Sequence record: PZ402300.1
Reading direction: 5' to 3' (one strand)
Length of the DNA: 64,000 bases
Origin: a phage
A program made the position numbers and the translations under genes. Below, piece after piece: positions 691 through 64,000 of this stretch. Position 1 is the stretch's first letter; each line of letters begins with the position of its first letter. The notes under the pieces were generated by a model. The model searched no databases, was not told the DNA's origin, and worked only from the letters and a program-made list of their open reading frames with translations.

Positions 691-2272
691 GTTAATTAAA
701 CAGGAACTTGATGAATGGCTAGACCAGGTGGATTACTCCCACCTTAATTCTTCTAACTATGTTCCTAGTCAGTTTGCTCTTACCTTTGCCAACTTTATTA
801 AGTTGGTTAATGGTAAAGAAGGTGAATCCAACAAAACACCACCAGTTCACCTGAAGATGCTGGATAAAATGATTAGCCCGAACCAGTATGTAGTTAATCT
901 GTGCTTCCGTGGAGCAGGTAAGACTGCTGTGTTCATGGAATACTTTACTTTGTTCCTGGCAGTATTCGGTCACTTACCAAGCCTGGGTAAAGTAGAAGGA
1001 ATGATTTACGTATCCGACTCAATGGATAACGGTGCTAAGTCTGCTCGTAAGAACATTGAGTTCCGTTACAAGAATAGTGAGTTCCTCCAGCAATGGATAC
1101 CTGAAGCTACCTTTACGGATAACCTACTGGAGTTTCGTAATGTAGAAGGGCATCGTCTAGGTGTTAAGCTGTTCGGTGCTAAAACAGGTCTTCGTGGTAC
1201 GAAGATATATGGTAAGCGTCCTACACTCTGTGTACTGGATGACTTGATTAGCGATGGTGATGCTAACTCCAAGACTAGCATGGAAGCTATTAAGGATACC
1301 GTCTATAAAGGTGTTAACCATGCTCTTGACCCAACCCGTCGTAAAGTAATATTCAATGGTACTCCCTTTAATAAGGAGGACATTATCATCGAAGCAGTAG
1401 AGTCTGGTGCATGGGATGTAAACGTATGGCCTGTATGTGAGAAGTTCCCTTGTAGTAGAGAAGAATTTCAGGGTGCATGGGACGACCGTTTCTCTTACGA
1501 CTATATCAAAGCTCAATACGATATGGCAGTTAAGACTGGTAAGCTGGCAGGCTTCTATCAGGAACTTATGCTACGTATTAGTTCTGAGGATGAGAGACTG
1601 GTTCAGGATAGCGAAATTAGGTGGTATAGCAGACAACAGCTATTAAGGATGAAGTCCTGCTATAACTATTACATTACAACCGACTTTGCTACTTCGGAGA
1701 AACAGACCAGTGACTACAGTGTCATATCAGTTTGGGCTTATAGTTCTAATGGAGATTGGTTCTGGGTTGATGGTGTGGCTAATCGTCAGCTTATGGATAA
1801 AAACTTTGATGACCTGTTCCGTCTGGTTCAAGAATACCAACCACAAAATGTTGGGGTCGAAATCACAGGTCAACAAGGTGGGTTCATTTCACTTCTTCAG
1901 AAGGAAATGATTAACCGTAATGTCTTCTTTAACTTTGCATCCTCCGAGGGTGGTAAGCCGGGTATCCGTCCTGTAACCTCTAAACTGTCACGTTTTAATC
2001 TGGTAGTTCCATGGTTCAAAGCTGGTAAGATGTACTTCCCGGAAGAGTTGAGAGATTCAACTATTATGGGTTTGTTCATGGGCCAAATTAAACTAGCTAC
2101 CATTAATGGAATCAAAGGTAAGGATGACTGTATTGATACTATCTCCATGCTGGGTTATCTCAATCCCTGGAAACCACAAGCAGGTATTACTCTGGTGGAT
2201 AACAAAGGTGACCCAATGTGGGATGATGAAGAAGAAGATAGTGTTAACCCACTTCGTTCATACATTGTGTGA
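683..2272 (+). CDS. terminase large subunit
   Basis: Walker A-like CFRGAGKT near N-terminus; acidic-residue-rich C-terminal half; position at head of structural module; start moved to ATG 683 behind GAGGA. Confidence 0.7.
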   Translation: MSELIKQELDEWLDQVDYSHLNSSNYVPSQFALTFANFIKLVNGKEGESNKTPPVHLKMLDKMISPNQYVVNLCFRGAGKTAVFMEYFTLFLAVFGHLPSLGKVEGMIYVSDSMDNGAKSARKNIEFRYKNSEFLQQWIPEATFTDNLLEFRNVEGHRLGVKLFGAKTGLRGTKIYGKRPTLCVLDDLISDGDANSKTSMEAIKDTVYKGVNHALDPTRRKVIFNGTPFNKEDIIIEAVESGAWDVNVWPVCEKFPCSREEFQGAWDDRFSYDYIKAQYDMAVKTGKLAGFYQELMLRISSEDERLVQDSEIRWYSRQQLLRMKSCYNYYITTDFATSEKQTSDYSVISVWAYSSNGDWFWVDGVANRQLMDKNFDDLFRLVQEYQPQNVGVEITGQQGGFISLLQKEMINRNVFFNFASSEGGKPGIRPVTSKLSRFNLVVPWFKAGKMYFPEELRDSTIMGLFMGQIKLATINGIKGKDDCIDTISMLGYLNPWKPQAGITLVDNKGDPMWDDEEEDSVNPLRSYIV

Positions 2273-33470: not shown

Positions 33471-33544
33471 TACCCACTACTGGATTTGAACCAGTGACCT
33501 TCCGATTATTAGTCGGTTGCTTTCCCCGTCTAAGCTAAGTGGGC
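33471..33544 (-). tRNA. tRNA, 74 nt, no encoded CCA; anticodon loop CUAAUAA (anticodon read as AAU)
   Basis: 7-bp acceptor stem, D-arm GCUU/AAGC, T-arm ACUGG-UUCAAAU-CCAGU folded by hand. Confidence 0.6.
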
Positions 33545-33549
33545 ATAAA

Positions 33550-33625
33550 TGGTTACCCGGACAGGATTCGAACCTGTGTCCTAGTTGGTTTACTAGTGGG
33601 GCTTTACCACTAAGCCTACCGGGTA
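33550..33625 (-). tRNA. tRNA-like gene with encoded CCA; anticodon arm atypical, isotype undetermined
   Basis: Perfect acceptor stem UACCCGG/CCGGGUA, D-arm GGCU/AGCC, T-arm ACAGG-UUCGAAU-CCUGU; anticodon stem is palindromic CUAG with 8-nt loop UAAACCAA. Confidence 0.5.
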
Positions 33626-60822: not shown

Positions 60823-61036
60823 AGCTATTTACACAGTAAATAGCAAAAGCTATCCATCCTGTCATTACAAAGCAACCAAGTGAGTATGCCCCATAGTAGT
60901 AGTAAGCAAACTTAGACTTGTGGGCACGGACTATTGTAGTCAGAACCAGTACAGATAAAGCTATCAGTATTAACTGAAAGATTACTTCAAAAGTGATTAG
61001 CATAGTTGCTACCTCCAAGCAAAAAATATGCCTCAC
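60821..61036 (-). CDS. small membrane protein
   Basis: Two hydrophobic helices in 71 aa. Confidence 0.35.
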   Translation of the reverse strand: MRHIFCLEVATMLITFEVIFQLILIALSVLVLTTIVRAHKSKFAYYYYGAYSLGCFVMTGWIAFAIYCVNS

Positions 61037-61053
61037 TCCCGAAGGAATGAGGC
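61017..61053 (-). terminator. terminator after RNA polymerase gene
   Basis: gcctcactcc/ggaatgaggc imperfect hairpin with U-run on minus strand. Confidence 0.55.
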
Positions 61054-61060
61054 TAGTTTA

Positions 61061-61248
61061 TTAACTTAATGCATAATCTGTTTCAAGGATGTCCTGCCAG
61101 AGGCTGTCATCCAGCTTACCAGCAGAGAACTCTTGTCCCAGTACCTGAGTCAGGATGAATCCCAGTAAGTCACTCTTAGCAATGTCAGACAGAATCTGAT
61201 TGTACTGACGACGCAGGTCATTACCGTAGTTAGGATGGCATCTAAAAC
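61061..61248 (-). CDS. T7-like single-subunit RNA polymerase, exon 3 (C-terminal 62 codons)
   Basis: Spliced reading gives ...HD-CFRCHPNYGNDL...DILETDYALS, aligning with the T7 RNAP C-terminus HDSFGTIP...DILESDFAFA. Confidence 0.55.
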
Positions 61249-62216
61249 CATTAGTTAAACGAGTCGTTAGCTCGCCCTTACCTTCCATGATTAACATGGA
61301 AGCCATACGTAGCATCTGCTTCTTTACGAGCAAGCATTGCCTCCTCAAGTGTGTCATACGTACCCAGACCGATCTGTTTACGATTGACTGTGATGTGTGC
61401 CTGGAATCTACCAGAAGGTAATATTCTTACACCATTCACTTTGCTTGATGTATTACGTGATAAACCCATATTCATCTGGTTCTGTCTACTGGTTACATTT
61501 CTCAGATTAGACCAACGGTTGTCGTTTCTAATGTGATTGATGTGATCCACCTGGTTAGGTGTTTCCCCTGTTTCCATTATCCAGATTATTCGATGCAGTA
61601 AGTACTCTTTACGACCCAGACTAACAGATAAATAGCCTTCTTTGTGAGGATACCCCACAATTGTTCCGGCTAATCCACTAGCAGAGTCGTAACGATGAGT
61701 TACTAGCCCACTTTCTCTGTCATACCGTAAAACCTTCTTCAAAGATTCTTGGGTAATAGTATCCAAGTCTTTTATCAGGTTCTTACAGGTAGGACATAGG
61801 TGGCCTATTGGACTCTTTTTAGCATCATAGAAGTTGCAAACAAACTCACTAGAGCATTGCTTACAACTACAGATAGCTGTGTACTTACCAGTTTTACGTA
61901 ATATTTGGGAGTTATCTAACATATGGATTCCTTAGTAATTTTGCATACAATTTCAGATTGTATCCTAACCAAGGAAGTAAGTCTCCAGTTTTCACTGGAG
62001 TATCGGACTATATCATCACCCACTAATCAGTGGGGCAAGGCGCTTGGGTGGTCACTTGACTCACCTACTCTACTCACATACGAAATGTTTTCGATAGTCT
62101 CTGAACCTTCCCTCATGGAGGGCTTGGCTGCTGATTGGCATATCCATAGGACTTAGCTTTCCAGCAATTCACCTTGTTTTCGACACGGATTACTCCGTGA
62201 AGGATCATTTATGTTT
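61249..62216 (-). mobile_element. group I intron 2 with HNH-AP2 homing endonuclease ORF
   Basis: P gaattgctggaaag 62170-62156, Q aatcagcagcc 62136-62126, R gttcagagactatcg 62106-62092, S gatgatatagtccga 62017-62003; ends in G; boundaries +/- a few nt. Confidence 0.65.
61278..61922 (-). CDS. HNH homing endonuclease with AP2-like DNA-binding domain (intron-encoded)
   Basis: HNH motif DHINHIRNDNRWSNLR; AP2-like GVRILPSGRFQAHITVNRKQIGLGTYDTLEEA. Confidence 0.75.
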   Translation of the reverse strand: MLDNSQILRKTGKYTAICSCKQCSSEFVCNFYDAKKSPIGHLCPTCKNLIKDLDTITQESLKKVLRYDRESGLVTHRYDSASGLAGTIVGYPHKEGYLSVSLGRKEYLLHRIIWIMETGETPNQVDHINHIRNDNRWSNLRNVTSRQNQMNMGLSRNTSSKVNGVRILPSGRFQAHITVNRKQIGLGTYDTLEEAMLARKEADATYGFHVNHGR

Positions 62217-62824
62217 AATCATGTACAGTCATTACAGGGAATGGCTTCTTAGGTAAAGTATTGAGCATAGTCAGGATTACATCTGTATCAACCAATGCAA
62301 TGGTTTCTGAGTCCAGATAATCAAAGATACGGGTAGACAGAAAGCCTGATTTCTCATAGCTAGCCCACAGTGTATTAACCGTTTCATGACTAGCACCAGG
62401 GACAACTATGTATTCACCAGTTCCTTCACAGAGGGACTTAATATAGTTCACCTGGTTCACGTTGAAGTTACAACGACGCAGCATCTCACGTACCACCATC
62501 CCATCAATAGAGTGAGTGATGTTAGCAGAGAGCATACGGGTCTTCTCTTCAGTACCCTGAACCATACGAGTGATGTCGAATGGCTTACCTAAGAAGTTAA
62601 CAGTCTGTACTTCAGGAACCATGACCTTAATGACAGCATGGAAGTTGTCAGGAAGTACCCATACGTAACGGTTAGCATCAGGATTACCACATTGCAGTAA
62701 GAACTTGTTAAGTGCCCAAGGACCACTAGCAACAGTTTCCATTACATTCTCAAAAGTCTTGAGACGAATACCTTCACCGAATACTTCTTTAGGCTTGGCT
62801 TCTGAGCCGTAGAATGCAGTCATA
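62217..62824 (-). CDS. T7-like single-subunit RNA polymerase, exon 2 (motif B to catalytic HD)
   Basis: MTAFYGS aligns with T7 MTLAYGS; ends PVMTVHD aligning with T7 FALIHD; UAA stop sits at the junction. Confidence 0.65.
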
Positions 62825-63631
62825 CATTATGTTCAAGGGAGGTCGTTAGTCTCCCCCAGCAGCTTTACCTGCATCTCACTGTTACCAGTGAGTTCGGACT
62901 ATATCATCTAGACTGATAGTCTAGCCGGGCGCTTCGACCCACTTGGGCCTACTCTACTAAGTTCAGCTTTCGCTGCTTTTCGATAGTCTCTGCACCTTTT
63001 GGTTATTCAAAACAGCATCACACATATCAATAAAGTCATTGGTTGAGAGGTCACCCTTTGCTCGGTTTACACACCAAGCTAACCATTGAACATTACCAAT
63101 ACTGTATCCTTTACTTGGTTCTATCTGATCTAGTGATAGACACAAAGGATGCCCCGATTCAATTACTAAGGTTGCTCCAGTTAAAGCACATTTAAATTCC
63201 TGTGATTTAAGGATTTCAAATAAATACTCTACTGTACAATCTGGCATAGGCTTACCAAACTTTTTACACCGACTTCTTGCATCCTTTAGTCTATGGGAGA
63301 CTGCGGAATACCATTTACGGTGTTCTTTTGGTATTGCTTTACGAACTCCAGTTCCATTGTAACCTGGGTTCTTTTTACGCCATTCACGAGCTACAGCAGC
63401 CTTACAGGGTCTGCAACGATTCTCGTAATTAGTTTTGAATCCTGTGAGTGATTTTTTAGTCTCTGGGAATACTTCGATAGGAAGTAATTTTTTACATCGA
63501 CTACATGTTTTGAATTCTGACATAGAATGCTCCTTATTGAACTTTCTACGCTACCAACTTGGCTCATGATTGTCCACTAGGGATGTTCCATGAGTTCACC
63601 CGGTTTTAAGGCCGCCATGACTTAAAGGTTA
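62825..63631 (-). mobile_element. group I intron 1 with HNH homing endonuclease ORF
   Basis: P1: exon AGGCCGU pairs with GCGGCCU (63615-63609); P10 GUCAU/AUGAC; P gaactcatgg, Q caatcatgagcc, R 62996-62981, S 62908-62894; last nt G. Confidence 0.7.
62963..63523 (-). CDS. HNH-family homing endonuclease (intron-encoded)
   Basis: N-terminal CxxC...CxxC; C-terminal SLDQI..GY..GNVQWLAWCVNRAK motif; AAGGAG RBS. Confidence 0.65.
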   Translation of the reverse strand: MSEFKTCSRCKKLLPIEVFPETKKSLTGFKTNYENRCRPCKAAVAREWRKKNPGYNGTGVRKAIPKEHRKWYSAVSHRLKDARSRCKKFGKPMPDCTVEYLFEILKSQEFKCALTGATLVIESGHPLCLSLDQIEPSKGYSIGNVQWLAWCVNRAKGDLSTNDFIDMCDAVLNNQKVQRLSKSSES

Positions 63632-64000
63632 ACGGCCTGCTTAGTGTCACTACGCTTAATACGTGATGCTTCACCAAGGATGTCCAGCATCTTGTGATAG
63701 ATAACTGTATAGGCATCACGGCGTAATGGCTTACCATTCTCATCCATGTAGTTAACTACGTTACACAGTTCAGCAGCAGAGCGGTCACCAGTCAGACAGG
63801 CCAGTAACTGTAAGCCTGATGATGTAGCATCCAGAGCTACAGCATAACCAATAGGCTTACCTGCTTTCATATCTTTCCATGCATTTACACCTGCAAAGAA
63901 CAGAGCAGAATCCTCTGCTTCATCTACCAGATTAAGCAGGTTAGCTTCATTCTCATCGAACCAGGCAATACGTTCATCCCATGTCTTTTTATCTAAGCCA
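63632..64000 (-). CDS. T7-like single-subunit RNA polymerase, exon 1 (partial; continues beyond window end)
   Basis: LDATSSGLQLLA aligns with T7 FDGSCSGIQHFSA; RSDTKQAV aligns with T7 RSVTKRSV. Confidence 0.65.

What the first reader, a model, noticed from the sequence alone, without database searches (positions are those of the whole stretch)
62825..63631. Intron 1: complete P1/P10 pairing and core, endonuclease ORF between Q and R
Exon 1 ends ...AGGCCGU and the intron contains GCGGCCU 17 nt downstream, giving a 7-bp P1 with U-G at the cleavage site. GUCAU just 5' of that guide pairs with AUGAC at the start of exon 2 (P10). P and Q show complementary CUCAUGG/CAUGAG; R and S lie 3' of the endonuclease ORF, which places the ORF in a P6-region loop. 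In-frame stops follow the 5' splice site.
Basis: seen in the sequence. Interest (0 to 1): 0.75.

Follow-up and report, generated by a model that had tools for sequence, protein, structure and literature searches.

The report
Self-splicing intron in phage RNA polymerase
The 807 bases are a genuine mobile group I intron carrying its own endonuclease gene, inserted in the catalytic core of the RNA polymerase gene of an N4-like coliphage; this is an ordinary kind of element, but databases and papers have so far treated it as a broken, "split" polymerase gene.

Summary
Confirmed. Window 63631..62825 (minus strand, 807 nt) is a group I intron of the IA (T4-like IA2) type. It sits in the RNAP2 gene (N4 gp16 homologue) of a G7C-like coliphage. 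The boundaries match the intron-less G7C gene exactly, with U before the 5' splice site and G as the last intron base. Splicing this intron and a second one (62216..61249) in silico gives a reading frame collinear with G7C gp16 and with solved N4 RNAP2 (PDB 6DT7_B). In a hand-curated alignment of eight homologues, 96.6% of cells pair and 50 of 78 pairs show compensatory changes, including 6 of 7 P1 pairs. Rfam misses the window copy at gathering score because a 186-aa endonuclease ORF sits in the P6a loop. A natural ORF-deleted orthologue scores 49.8 bits and an ORF-less paralogue 74.6 bits. One correction: the ORF's last 41 nt overlap P6a', P6', P7 and P7.1, so "R" is not 3' of the ORF. A covarying hairpin hides the ORF start codon. 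Patchy presence among close relatives, and 96% intron versus 73-83% exon identity, indicate recent mobility. New member of a known kind; relatives are annotated as split genes.

The parts
63632..64000 (-). RNAP2 exon 1 (5' end cut by the window edge). The last 7 nt, AGGCCGU (63638..63632), form the P1 5' strand. The 5' splice site follows U63632.
   Evidence: Pfam RNA_pol hit; alignment to G7C gp16 nt 61-424; P1 covariation in 6/7 pairs, with U.G in 8/8 sequences.
62825..63631 (-). Intron 1, 807 nt: a group I (IA-type) intron with an endonuclease ORF in the P6a loop.
63622..63624 (-). UAA stop in the exon-1 reading frame (intron nt 8-10), in the P1 loop.
63609..63621 (-). Internal guide sequence: GUCAUG (P10 guide, 63621..63616) followed by GCGGCCU (P1 3' strand, 63615..63609).
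   Evidence: for coordinates; helices 1 and 2.
63597..63603 (-). P3 5' strand CCGGGUG, which pairs with 62931..62925.
   Evidence: helix 3: 100% paired, 3 pairs with double changes.
63564..63593 (-). P4 5' strand (UCAUGG), P5 hairpin (63583..63573) and P4 3' strand (UCAUGA).
   Evidence: Rfam partial hit on model positions 60-142; helices 4 and 5; MFE fold.
63553..63563 (-). P6 5' strand (GCC, 63563..63561) and P6a 5' strand (UUGGU, 63557..63553).
   Evidence: helices 6 and 7: 7 of 8 pairs with double changes.
63521..63550 (-). Hairpin CGUAGAA...UUCUAUG that pairs the ORF start codon. The Shine-Dalgarno AAGGAG (63535..63530) lies in and next to the loop.
   Evidence: In the MFE folds of 7 homologues the AUG is paired in all, and the stem sequences differ.
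62963..63523 (-). Intron ORF, 186 aa. It has a CxxC...CxxC motif and an endonuclease VII-like/HNH-superfamily (beta-beta-alpha-Me) block, LSLDQIEP..GNVQW..VNRAKG.
   Evidence: PHROG 1035 'endonuclease VII', 1e-31; 159 homologous clusters; alignment A3; AF2 model plus Foldseek hits to HNH nucleases, all weak; no Pfam hit.
62983..63003 (-). P6a 3' strand (ACCAA, 63003..62999), P6 3' strand (GGU, 62996..62994), J6/7 and P7 5' strand (GACUAU, 62988..62983). All lie inside the ORF's last codons (K V Q R L S).
62936..62977 (-). P7.1 (62977..62960, which contains the ORF stop UGA at 62965..62963) and P7.2 (62949..62936).
   Evidence: helices 9-11; MFE fold.
62897..62931 (-). P3 3' strand (CGCCCGG), P8 hairpin (62924..62908), J8/7 and P7 3' strand (AUAGUC, 62902..62897).
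   Evidence: Rfam partial hit; helices 3, 8 and 12. All 5 P8 pairs show double changes; P7 is invariant.
62825..62892 (-). P9 (62892..62875), P9.1 (62872..62859), P9.2 (62857..62835) and the 3' tail GAACAUAAUG, which ends in the terminal G at 62825.
   Evidence: helices 13-15; terminal G in 8/8 homologues.
62217..62824 (-). RNAP2 exon 2. Its first 6 nt, UAUGAC, form P10 with the guide.
61249..62216 (-). Intron 2, 968 nt: a second group I intron with an HNH_3/AP2 ORF (61922..61278) 3' of P9. It is context, not the finding itself.
   Evidence: Rfam Intron_gpI 92.8 bits; Pfam; in-silico splice.
61061..61248 (-). RNAP2 exon 3, including the stop codon.

Best explanation
Window 63631..62825 (minus strand) is a mobile, self-splicing group I intron of the IA (T4-like IA2) architecture. 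It interrupts the RNAP2 gene, the N4 gp16-type large subunit of the phage's middle-gene RNA polymerase. The insertion lies inside the codon before Met of the conserved ..TKQAV|MTAFYGS.. stretch. From my knowledge of T7 RNA polymerase, this corresponds to motif B.

Proposed splicing mechanism:
1. In the pre-mRNA, the guide GUCAUG-GCGGCCU pairs first with the end of exon 1 (P1, with U.G at the cleavage site).
2. The P3-P8 and P4-P6 domains, with P7 between them, form the guanosine-binding core.
3. Exogenous G attacks after U63632.
4. The guide then aligns exon 2 (P10).
5. The terminal G62825 is exchanged into the site and the exons are ligated, restoring an uninterrupted RNAP2 mRNA.

The P6a loop carries a 186-aa endonuclease VII-like/HNH-superfamily endonuclease gene. 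Its start codon is held in a hairpin, and its last 41 nt double as P6a', P6', J6/7, P7 and part of P7.1. Translation of the endonuclease and folding of the ribozyme on the same RNA should therefore exclude each other. The endonuclease presumably cuts or nicks intron-less RNAP2 alleles of co-infecting phages, which spreads the intron by homing.

Shown here: boundaries, structure, covariation, frame restoration and the mobility signature. Inferred: catalysis, endonuclease activity and target, and the translational switch.
For: - Boundaries: intron-less G7C gp16 aligns up to 63630 and resumes at 62824. Only the 63631..62825 placement gives U(-1) and a terminal G.
- Frame restoration: removing this intron and intron 2 gives a frame that aligns without gaps to G7C gp16 (357/388 identical). 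It also aligns end to end with solved N4 RNAP2, 6DT7_B (E 2.7e-181).
- Rfam on the window copy: Intron_gpI 36.1 bits (E 2.4e-7) on the 3' half and 16.7 bits on P4-P6.
- Rfam on relatives: a natural 325-nt ORF-deleted orthologue at the same site (L018) scores 49.8 bits, E 1e-11, over the full model with the same P1. ORF-less paralogues sharing the core score 57-75 bits.
- Same-site homologues: found in Burkholderia, Achromobacter and Vibrio N4-like phages and in metagenomic contigs.
- Covariation: on the 8-sequence structural alignment 96.6% of cells pair, against 74.6% when shuffled. 50 of 78 pairs have double changes, against 8-13 when partners are slid. No shuffle of 500 reaches the observed values.
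- Unconstrained fold: the MFE fold of the ORF-deleted RNA recovers P1, P3, P4, P5, P7.1, P7.2, P8, P9, P9.1 and P9.2, with z = -4.05.
- Exon co-adaptation: intron-containing alleles carry a synonymous C at exon position -3 that completes P1. Intron-less G7C and Moonfish have A there.
- Core similarity: the core is 77-83% identical to a stretch of Aeromonas phage 25 gene 43B, which is annotated as split by a group IA2 intron.
- Mobility: all four presence/absence combinations of the two introns occur among close relatives. Between the window and L021 the exons are 73-83% identical, but intron 1 is 96.4% and intron 2 is 95.1%.
- Endonuclease: PHROG 'endonuclease VII' at 1e-31, and the best structural neighbours are mostly HNH nucleases.
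- Start-codon hairpin: present in all 7 homologues examined, with differing stem sequences.
Against: - No experimental splicing data exist for this or any orthologue.
- The window copy does not reach Rfam's gathering score (36.1 bits against 50). Even the ORF-deleted orthologue falls 0.2 bits short.
- The covariation alignment was built by hand around the proposed helices, so it leans towards that structure.
- P7 is invariant, so it has no covariation support.
- P5 is weak in the window copy (3 bp plus a C/U mismatch).
- The endonuclease has no Pfam match and no invariant histidine in its HNH-like block (D-Q where HNH enzymes have D-H). Its Foldseek hits are all above E 1e-3, so its activity is unproven.
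- Between distant genera the intron is only slightly more conserved than the exons.
Confidence: 0.93

Rival explanations
1. This is a genes-in-pieces arrangement. A free-standing endonuclease gene inserted into RNAP2, and the polymerase now works as separately translated fragments, as the GenBank annotations of JWAlpha, HN02, pVco-5, phi 1 and Moonfish imply.
For: - Relatives are annotated as separate 'RNA polymerase' CDSs flanking an 'endonuclease'.
- Exon 2 happens to begin at an AUG (M of MTAFYGS), one base after the 3' splice site.
- N4-type RNAPII is already a heterodimer of two fragments of a T7-like enzyme (PMC5418858).
- The same endonuclease family also occurs free-standing, in Agrobacterium phage OLIVR1.
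Against: - About 250 nt of non-coding flank folds into a complete group I core with compensatory changes.
- That core is kept even where the endonuclease gene has been deleted (L018).
- The insert splits the conserved KQAV|MTAFYGS stretch inside a codon.
- No Shine-Dalgarno precedes the exon-2 AUG: the sequence there is UUGAACAUAAUGUAUG.
- The splice sites obey the U / terminal G rule in 8 of 8 homologues.
Confidence: 0.03
2. This is a decayed group I intron. It still looks like a ribozyme but no longer splices efficiently, so this phage copy of RNAP2 is defective or depends on a helper.
For: - The window copy is below Rfam's gathering score.
- P5 is short.
- The origin of the window (isolate or metagenome) is unknown.
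Against: - Every core helix is intact in the window copy, and the ORF is full length.
- 96%-identical copies occur on at least 13 contigs from several samples, including a complete 74.8-kb phage contig.
- RNAP2 is needed for middle transcription in N4-type phages (established knowledge), so a non-splicing insert in its conserved core would be lethal.
Confidence: 0.035
3. The P1/P10 and P/Q complementarities arise by chance within an ordinary intergenic or mobile-gene insertion.
For: Short 5-7 nt complementarities are common in AT-rich phage DNA.
Against: The covariation statistics, the Rfam hits, the MFE z-score of -4.05 and the exact frame restoration.
Confidence: 0.005

Closest known systems
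Phage T4 td intron with I-TevI (group IA2), and its T4 relatives in nrdB and sunY/nrdD
   Same: - IA architecture with P7.1/P7.2 and P9.1/P9.2.
- The endonuclease ORF is looped out of the P6 region.
- The insertion is in a conserved catalytic segment of an essential enzyme gene.
- The ORF's translation start is sequestered in a hairpin (my knowledge of Gott et al. 1988 for T4; for this intron).
- The distribution among relatives is optional and patchy.
   Different: - The host gene is a single-subunit-type RNA polymerase subunit rather than a nucleotide-metabolism gene.
- The endonuclease is endonuclease VII-like/HNH-superfamily with a Cys4 motif, not GIY-YIG.
- The ORF's 3' end overlaps P6a', P6', P7 and P7.1.
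- No internal promoter was found, although only the sigma-70 type was tested.
- P2 is absent in the window copy.
Group IA2 intron in gene 43B (DNA polymerase) of Aeromonas phage 25 and related T4-like phages
   Same: It shares 77-83% nucleotide identity over the P7-P7.2-P3' core. The record annotates it as a group IA2 intron.
   Different: - The host gene (PolB) and the phage family (Straboviridae) differ.
- The similarity is limited to about 100 nt of the core.
- The exon context and guide sequence differ.
PhiPA3 gp210 intron in the virion RNA polymerase gene (Birkholz et al. 2024, PMC11620839)
   Same: It is a group I intron with an HNH-family endonuclease that interrupts a conserved catalytic region of a phage RNA polymerase gene. 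There the endonuclease was shown to nick the intron-less allele of a competing phage.
   Different: - That polymerase is a multisubunit (beta'-like) enzyme of a nucleus-forming jumbo phage; this one is a T7-like split single-subunit enzyme.
- The endonucleases are unrelated at the sequence level, as far as tested here.
- No functional data exist for this intron.
Intron 2 of the same gene (window 62216..61249)
   Same: - It has the same core sequence blocks: GAGACUAUCGAAAA, GUAGAGUAGG, GAUGAUAUAGUCCGA and the P9.2 loop CUAACGA.
- It is in the same host gene, in a catalytic motif, and is optional among relatives.
   Different: - Its ORF lies 3' of P9 rather than in P6a.
- It encodes a different endonuclease (HNH_3 plus AP2).
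- Rfam recognises it directly (92.8 bits), because the core is uninterrupted.

Membership tests
Group I intron (Rfam RF00028) | P1 helix between the 5' exon end and an internal guide, with a U.G wobble at the cleavage site | tested here: met
   AGGCCGU/GCGGCCU. U.G is present in 8/8 homologues and 6/7 P1 pairs show compensatory changes (helix 1). A synonymous exon change completes P1 in intron-bearing alleles.
Group I intron (Rfam RF00028) | Terminal guanosine (omega G) at the 3' splice site, and P10 pairing of the guide with the 3' exon | tested here: met
   G62825 is the last intron base, and G is terminal in 8/8 homologues. P10 is 6 bp in the window copy; across homologues 85% of cells pair and 3 pairs show double changes (helix 2).
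Group I intron (Rfam RF00028) | Conserved core: P3-P8 and P4-P5-P6 domains in canonical order | tested here: met
   P3, P4, P6, P6a and P8 are 97.5-100% paired, with compensatory changes in 16 of 26 pairs. The order matches the Rfam consensus alignment.
Group I intron (Rfam RF00028) | P7 helix forming the guanosine-binding site (pseudoknot with P3) | tested here: inconclusive
   GACUAU/AUAGUC can pair and matches the Rfam consensus AGACUA...GAUAUAGUC. All 6 pairs are invariant, so covariation cannot support or contradict the helix (helix 8).
Group I intron (Rfam RF00028) | Covariance-model score at or above the family's gathering score (50 bits) | tested here: inconclusive
   The window copy gives 36.1 and 16.7 bits as two partial hits, because the 561-nt ORF splits the core. 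The natural ORF-deleted orthologue L018 gives 49.8 bits, E 1e-11. The ORF-less paralogue L013 gives 74.6 bits. An ORF-deleted construct of the window copy could not be submitted to the tool.
Group I intron (Rfam RF00028) | Guanosine-dependent self-splicing | not testable with these tools
   This needs an in-vitro transcription and GTP-labelling assay, or RT-PCR from infected cells.
Subgroup IA (IA2, T4-like) | Extra P7.1/P7.2 helices between P7 and P3', and peripheral P9.1/P9.2 | tested here: met
   P7.1 (outer and inner parts), P7.2, P9.1 and P9.2 are all 94-100% paired with compensatory changes (helices 9-11, 14, 15). The core is 77-83% identical to an intron annotated as IA2 in Aeromonas phage 25. 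No subgroup-specific model was available, so the IA2 assignment rests on resemblance.
HNH / beta-beta-alpha-Me homing endonuclease | Sequence-profile match to an HNH or endonuclease VII family | tested here: inconclusive
   PHROG 1035 'endonuclease VII' matches at 1e-31, and four other endonuclease or HNH PHROGs also match. There is no Pfam match even at E 10 and no meaningful PDB sequence match.
HNH / beta-beta-alpha-Me homing endonuclease | beta-beta-alpha-metal fold | tested here: inconclusive
   The AF2 model has pLDDT 83, with strand-strand-helix at residues 129-158. Foldseek neighbours are mostly HNH nucleases (Cas9 HNH, PacI, Gme HNH, Hpy99I, McrA, T4 endonuclease VII), but all have E >= 2.8e-3 and TM <= 0.4 normalised to the query.
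HNH / beta-beta-alpha-Me homing endonuclease | Catalytic histidine of the D-H / HNH motif | tested here: not met
   The block reads LSLD-Q-I-[DE]-P. No histidine is invariant among 31 family members, whereas D132, N144 and N153 are invariant. The protein is therefore best described as an HNH-superfamily-like nuclease of unproven chemistry, not a canonical HNH enzyme.
HNH / beta-beta-alpha-Me homing endonuclease | Mobility: optional presence at a fixed site, with the intron more similar than its flanks | tested here: met
   All four presence/absence states of the two introns occur. Intron 1 is 96.4% identical between the window and L021, against 73-83% for the exons. Site-specific cleavage itself cannot be tested here.

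The most novel reading that the evidence does not exclude
The two mobile introns sit in the two catalytic motifs of the polymerase that drives the early-to-middle switch, and they may be more than passengers.

- Their endonucleases, one of them a histidine-less HNH-like enzyme, would disable the intron-less RNAP2 genes of co-infecting N4-like phages. That would be interference competition, as shown for PhiPA3 gp210.
- In intron 1, the start-codon hairpin and the 41-nt overlap between the ORF and P6a'-P7-P7.1 would form an RNA switch. The switch would make endonuclease translation and splicing mutually exclusive, tying polymerase supply to the intron's own expression.
Probability: 0.2. Interest if true: 0.55.

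Novelty: new member of a known kind. Interest (0 to 1): 0.36.

Why it matters
- It corrects an annotation error that recurs across Schitoviridae. RNAP2 in JWAlpha, JWDelta, HN02/04/05, pVco-5/7, phi 1, XC38, Moonfish and ZQ2 is deposited as two or three "RNA polymerase" fragments plus an endonuclease.
- The JWAlpha paper explicitly asked whether the interrupted gene is still functional (PMC3915230). Another paper used such an insertion to argue for how split polymerases evolved (PMC5418858). A self-splicing intron answers the first question and weakens the second argument.
- It shows that covariance-model scans at default thresholds miss ORF-bearing phage introns.
- It adds a T7-like (single-subunit-type) RNA polymerase to the list of intron targets.
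- It provides a tractable E. coli phage system: natural alleles with no intron, with either intron alone, and with both. This could be used to test intron homing and intron-mediated competition.

Tried and rejected
- Plain MAFFT alignment of the ORF-deleted introns (A1) misaligned P1, P2, P8 and P9.1 in the divergent Vibrio and L013 sequences. I replaced it with a hand-curated, N-padded alignment (A2).
- Pfam gave nothing for the ORF, even at E 10.
- The PDB sequence search gave only a spurious UHRF1 hit.
- An exact-sequence look-up of the ORF found no record.
- A third GATATAGTC motif at 1499-1507 (-) was checked as a possible hidden intron. It was rejected because it lies inside a long plus-strand ORF with no Rfam signal.
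- The whole-window permissive Rfam scan found no further introns.
- The sigma-70 promoter scan found nothing on the minus strand upstream of the ORF within the intron. N4-type promoters were not testable.
- Intron-versus-exon identity between distant genera was not decisive for horizontal transfer. The comparison among close relatives was decisive.
- Intein and group II intron readings were dismissed. There are in-frame stops and no protein-splicing motifs, and the RNA core is a group I core.

Full report
**Context.** The 3' end of the window is read on the minus strand. Megablast places it in G7C-like coliphages (Gamaleyavirus, Schitoviridae, N4-like) at about 93% identity. The interrupted gene is RNAP2, the N4 gp16-type subunit of the phage's middle RNA polymerase. 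Pfam RNA_pol hits exon 1. Most relatives cover the 3-kb query in about 1.2 kb, which means their gene is uninterrupted.

**Checking the observation.**
- Intron-less G7C gp16 aligns to 63993..63630 and resumes at 62824..62219. The 2-nt overlap (TA) allows three placements of the insert.
- Exon 1 ends AGGCCGU.
- GCGGCCU is at intron nt 17-23.
- GUCAUG at nt 11-16 pairs with exon 2 UAUGAC.
- UAA in the exon-1 frame lies at nt 8-10.

**Frame restoration.** A second insert, 62216..61249, carries a full Rfam Intron_gpI hit of 92.8 bits. Removing both inserts gives one reading frame that aligns without gaps to G7C gp16, 357/388 identical, with both junctions identical (TKQAV|MTAFYGS and TVHD|CFRCH). 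The same frame aligns end to end with the solved N4 RNAP2 chain 6DT7_B (E 2.7e-181). From my knowledge of T7 RNA polymerase, these two junctions correspond to motif B (K631...Y639 G640) and motif C (H811 D812).

**Rfam.** At gathering threshold Rfam misses intron 1. A permissive scan gives 36.1 bits (E 2.4e-7) on 62875-63147 and 16.7 bits on 63537-63593, which covers P4-P6. The reason is a 561-nt ORF between P6a and P6a'.

**Homologues.** Several sets of related inserts were found.
- A distant BLAST of the 807 nt finds a same-length insert (73% identity) in the RNAP2 gene of Burkholderia phages HN02/04/05. It finds partial matches in Achromobacter JWAlpha/JWDelta and in Vibrio pVco-5/7 and phi 1.
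- All of these are annotated as RNA polymerase, endonuclease, RNA polymerase, with no intron marked.
- An IMG/VR pattern scan added L012/L019 and L018 at the same site, plus ORF-less relatives in other genes.
- L018 is a natural 325-nt version in which nearly the whole ORF is deleted.
- The ORF-less paralogue L013 scores 74.6 bits, and L011 and L020 score 57-58 bits.

**Covariation.** MAFFT misaligned the length-variable hairpins. I therefore cut eight sequences into 39 structural fields, checked that the fields of each row concatenate back to the real sequence, and padded with N. On 78 pairs in 15 helices:
- 96.6% of cells form standard pairs, against 74.6 +/- 1.1% after shuffling.
- 50 pairs have changes on both sides, against 8-13 when partners are slid by 1-3 columns.
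- No shuffle of 500 reaches any observed measure.
- P1 has 6 of 7 covarying pairs and an invariant U.G. All 5 pairs of P8, all 5 of P6a and 6 of 7 of P9 covary.
- P7 is invariant and therefore uninformative.

The alignment was fitted to the structure, which inflates "cells paired". That cannot create double substitutions of this extent. An unconstrained MFE fold of the ORF-deleted window RNA independently recovers ten of the helices (z = -4.05).

**Architecture.** The window copy has no P2; the Vibrio copies have a covarying P2. P7.1/P7.2 and P9.1/P9.2 are present. The core is 77-83% identical to part of Aeromonas phage 25 gene 43B, which is annotated as split by a group IA2 intron. This makes it IA, T4-like.

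The G after P4' belongs to P6, not P4; its pairs G.U and U-A covary. The P7 5' strand (R) lies inside the ORF.

**The ORF.** It spans 63523..62963 and encodes 186 aa.
- It has no Pfam hit. It matches PHROG 1035 "endonuclease VII" at 1e-31.
- It belongs to a family of at least 159 clusters, many on 72-77-kb contigs.
- The family keeps CxxC...CxxC, D132, N144 and N153, but no invariant histidine. The HNH-like block reads LSLDQI[DE]P.
- An AF2 model (pLDDT 83) has mostly HNH nucleases as nearest PDB folds, all weakly.
- The invariant C-terminal KVQRLS is encoded by P6'-J6/7-P7, so the last 41 nt of the ORF are dual-coding.
- A hairpin pairs the AUG in all seven homologues examined, with different stem sequences. 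The Shine-Dalgarno lies in or next to the loop.

**Mobility.** Three lines of evidence support recent movement.
- G7C has neither intron. Moonfish and ZQ2 have only intron 2. L023 and L024 have only intron 1. The window and L021, a 74.8-kb phage contig in a Salmonella assembly, have both.
- Between the window and L021 the exons are 73-83% identical, but intron 1 is 96.4% and intron 2 is 95.1%.
- Intron-bearing alleles have C at exon position -3 (GCC), which pairs with the guide. Intron-less G7C and Moonfish have A there.

**Literature.**
- The JWAlpha paper noted the interrupted RNAP2 and asked whether it still functions (PMC3915230).
- The ZC08 paper treated a homing endonuclease in RNAP2 as a clue to polymerase splitting (PMC5418858).
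- Introns in N4-like phages were reported or suspected only in other genes (PMC5746245 and PMC3670811).
- A group I intron in a multisubunit phage RNA polymerase gene is known and gives a competitive advantage (PMC11620839).
- I found no paper in the searched library that describes this intron.

**Verdict.** This is a real, structurally complete and recently mobile group I intron: an ordinary kind of element in a new host gene, and systematically mis-annotated. Splicing, endonuclease activity and the proposed translation/splicing switch remain inferences.

Noticed in passing
window 61249-62216 (-): Second group I intron (968 nt) in the same gene, at the ..TVHD|CFRCH.. catalytic motif. Rfam scores 92.8 bits on 62226..61983. 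An HNH_3+AP2 endonuclease ORF (61922..61278) lies 3' of P9. Its 3' end carries the same P9.2 loop, CUAACGA, as intron 1.
   Followed up: partly
L001, L002, L003, L021, L023, L024: All four combinations of the two introns occur among close relatives: none in G7C, intron 2 only in Moonfish and ZQ2, intron 1 only in L023 and L024, and both in the window and L021. Between the window and L021 both introns are 95-96% identical while the exons are 73-83% identical.
   Followed up: yes
L018 2307-2631 (-): Natural 325-nt version of intron 1 at the same RNAP2 site. The endonuclease gene is reduced to its first 4 codons and its last ~20. The ribozyme core and the start-codon hairpin are retained.
   Followed up: yes
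L008 1864-2690 (Acinetobacter phage XC38): A related intron (827 nt, endonuclease 46% identical) is inserted 8 nt further downstream in the same motif (..VMTS|GYGS). In-silico splicing restores a 415-aa RNAP2. The record annotates three separate genes.
   Followed up: partly
window 63634 (exon position -3): Synonymous GCA to GCC difference: the four intron-bearing alleles examined have C, which pairs with the guide G in P1, and the intron-less G7C and Moonfish alleles have A. Only six alleles were compared.
   Followed up: partly
window 62963-63003 (-): Dual coding: the ORF's last 41 nt also form P6a', P6', J6/7, P7 and half of P7.1. The encoded KVQRLS is invariant in 31 of 31 family members, presumably because of the RNA constraint.
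   Followed up: partly
window 62966-63523 (-), residues 129-157: The endonuclease family has no invariant histidine. The HNH-like block has D-Q where canonical enzymes have D-H, yet it is strongly conserved. Its catalytic chemistry is unclear.
   Followed up: partly
L004-L007, L001, L003 (public records): RNAP2 of JWAlpha, HN02, pVco-5, phi 1, Moonfish and ZQ2 is deposited as separate 'RNA polymerase' fragments plus an endonuclease, with no intron feature.
   Followed up: yes
window 33471-33625 (-): Two adjacent tRNA genes (Rfam 64.8 and 42.0 bits).
   Followed up: no
window 61030-61053 (-): Terminator-like G+C-rich hairpin followed by a U run, immediately after the RNAP2 stop codon.
   Followed up: no
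window 1499-1507 (-): Third exact copy of the P7 motif GATATAGTC. It lies inside a long plus-strand ORF with no Rfam signal and is judged a chance match.
   Followed up: yes
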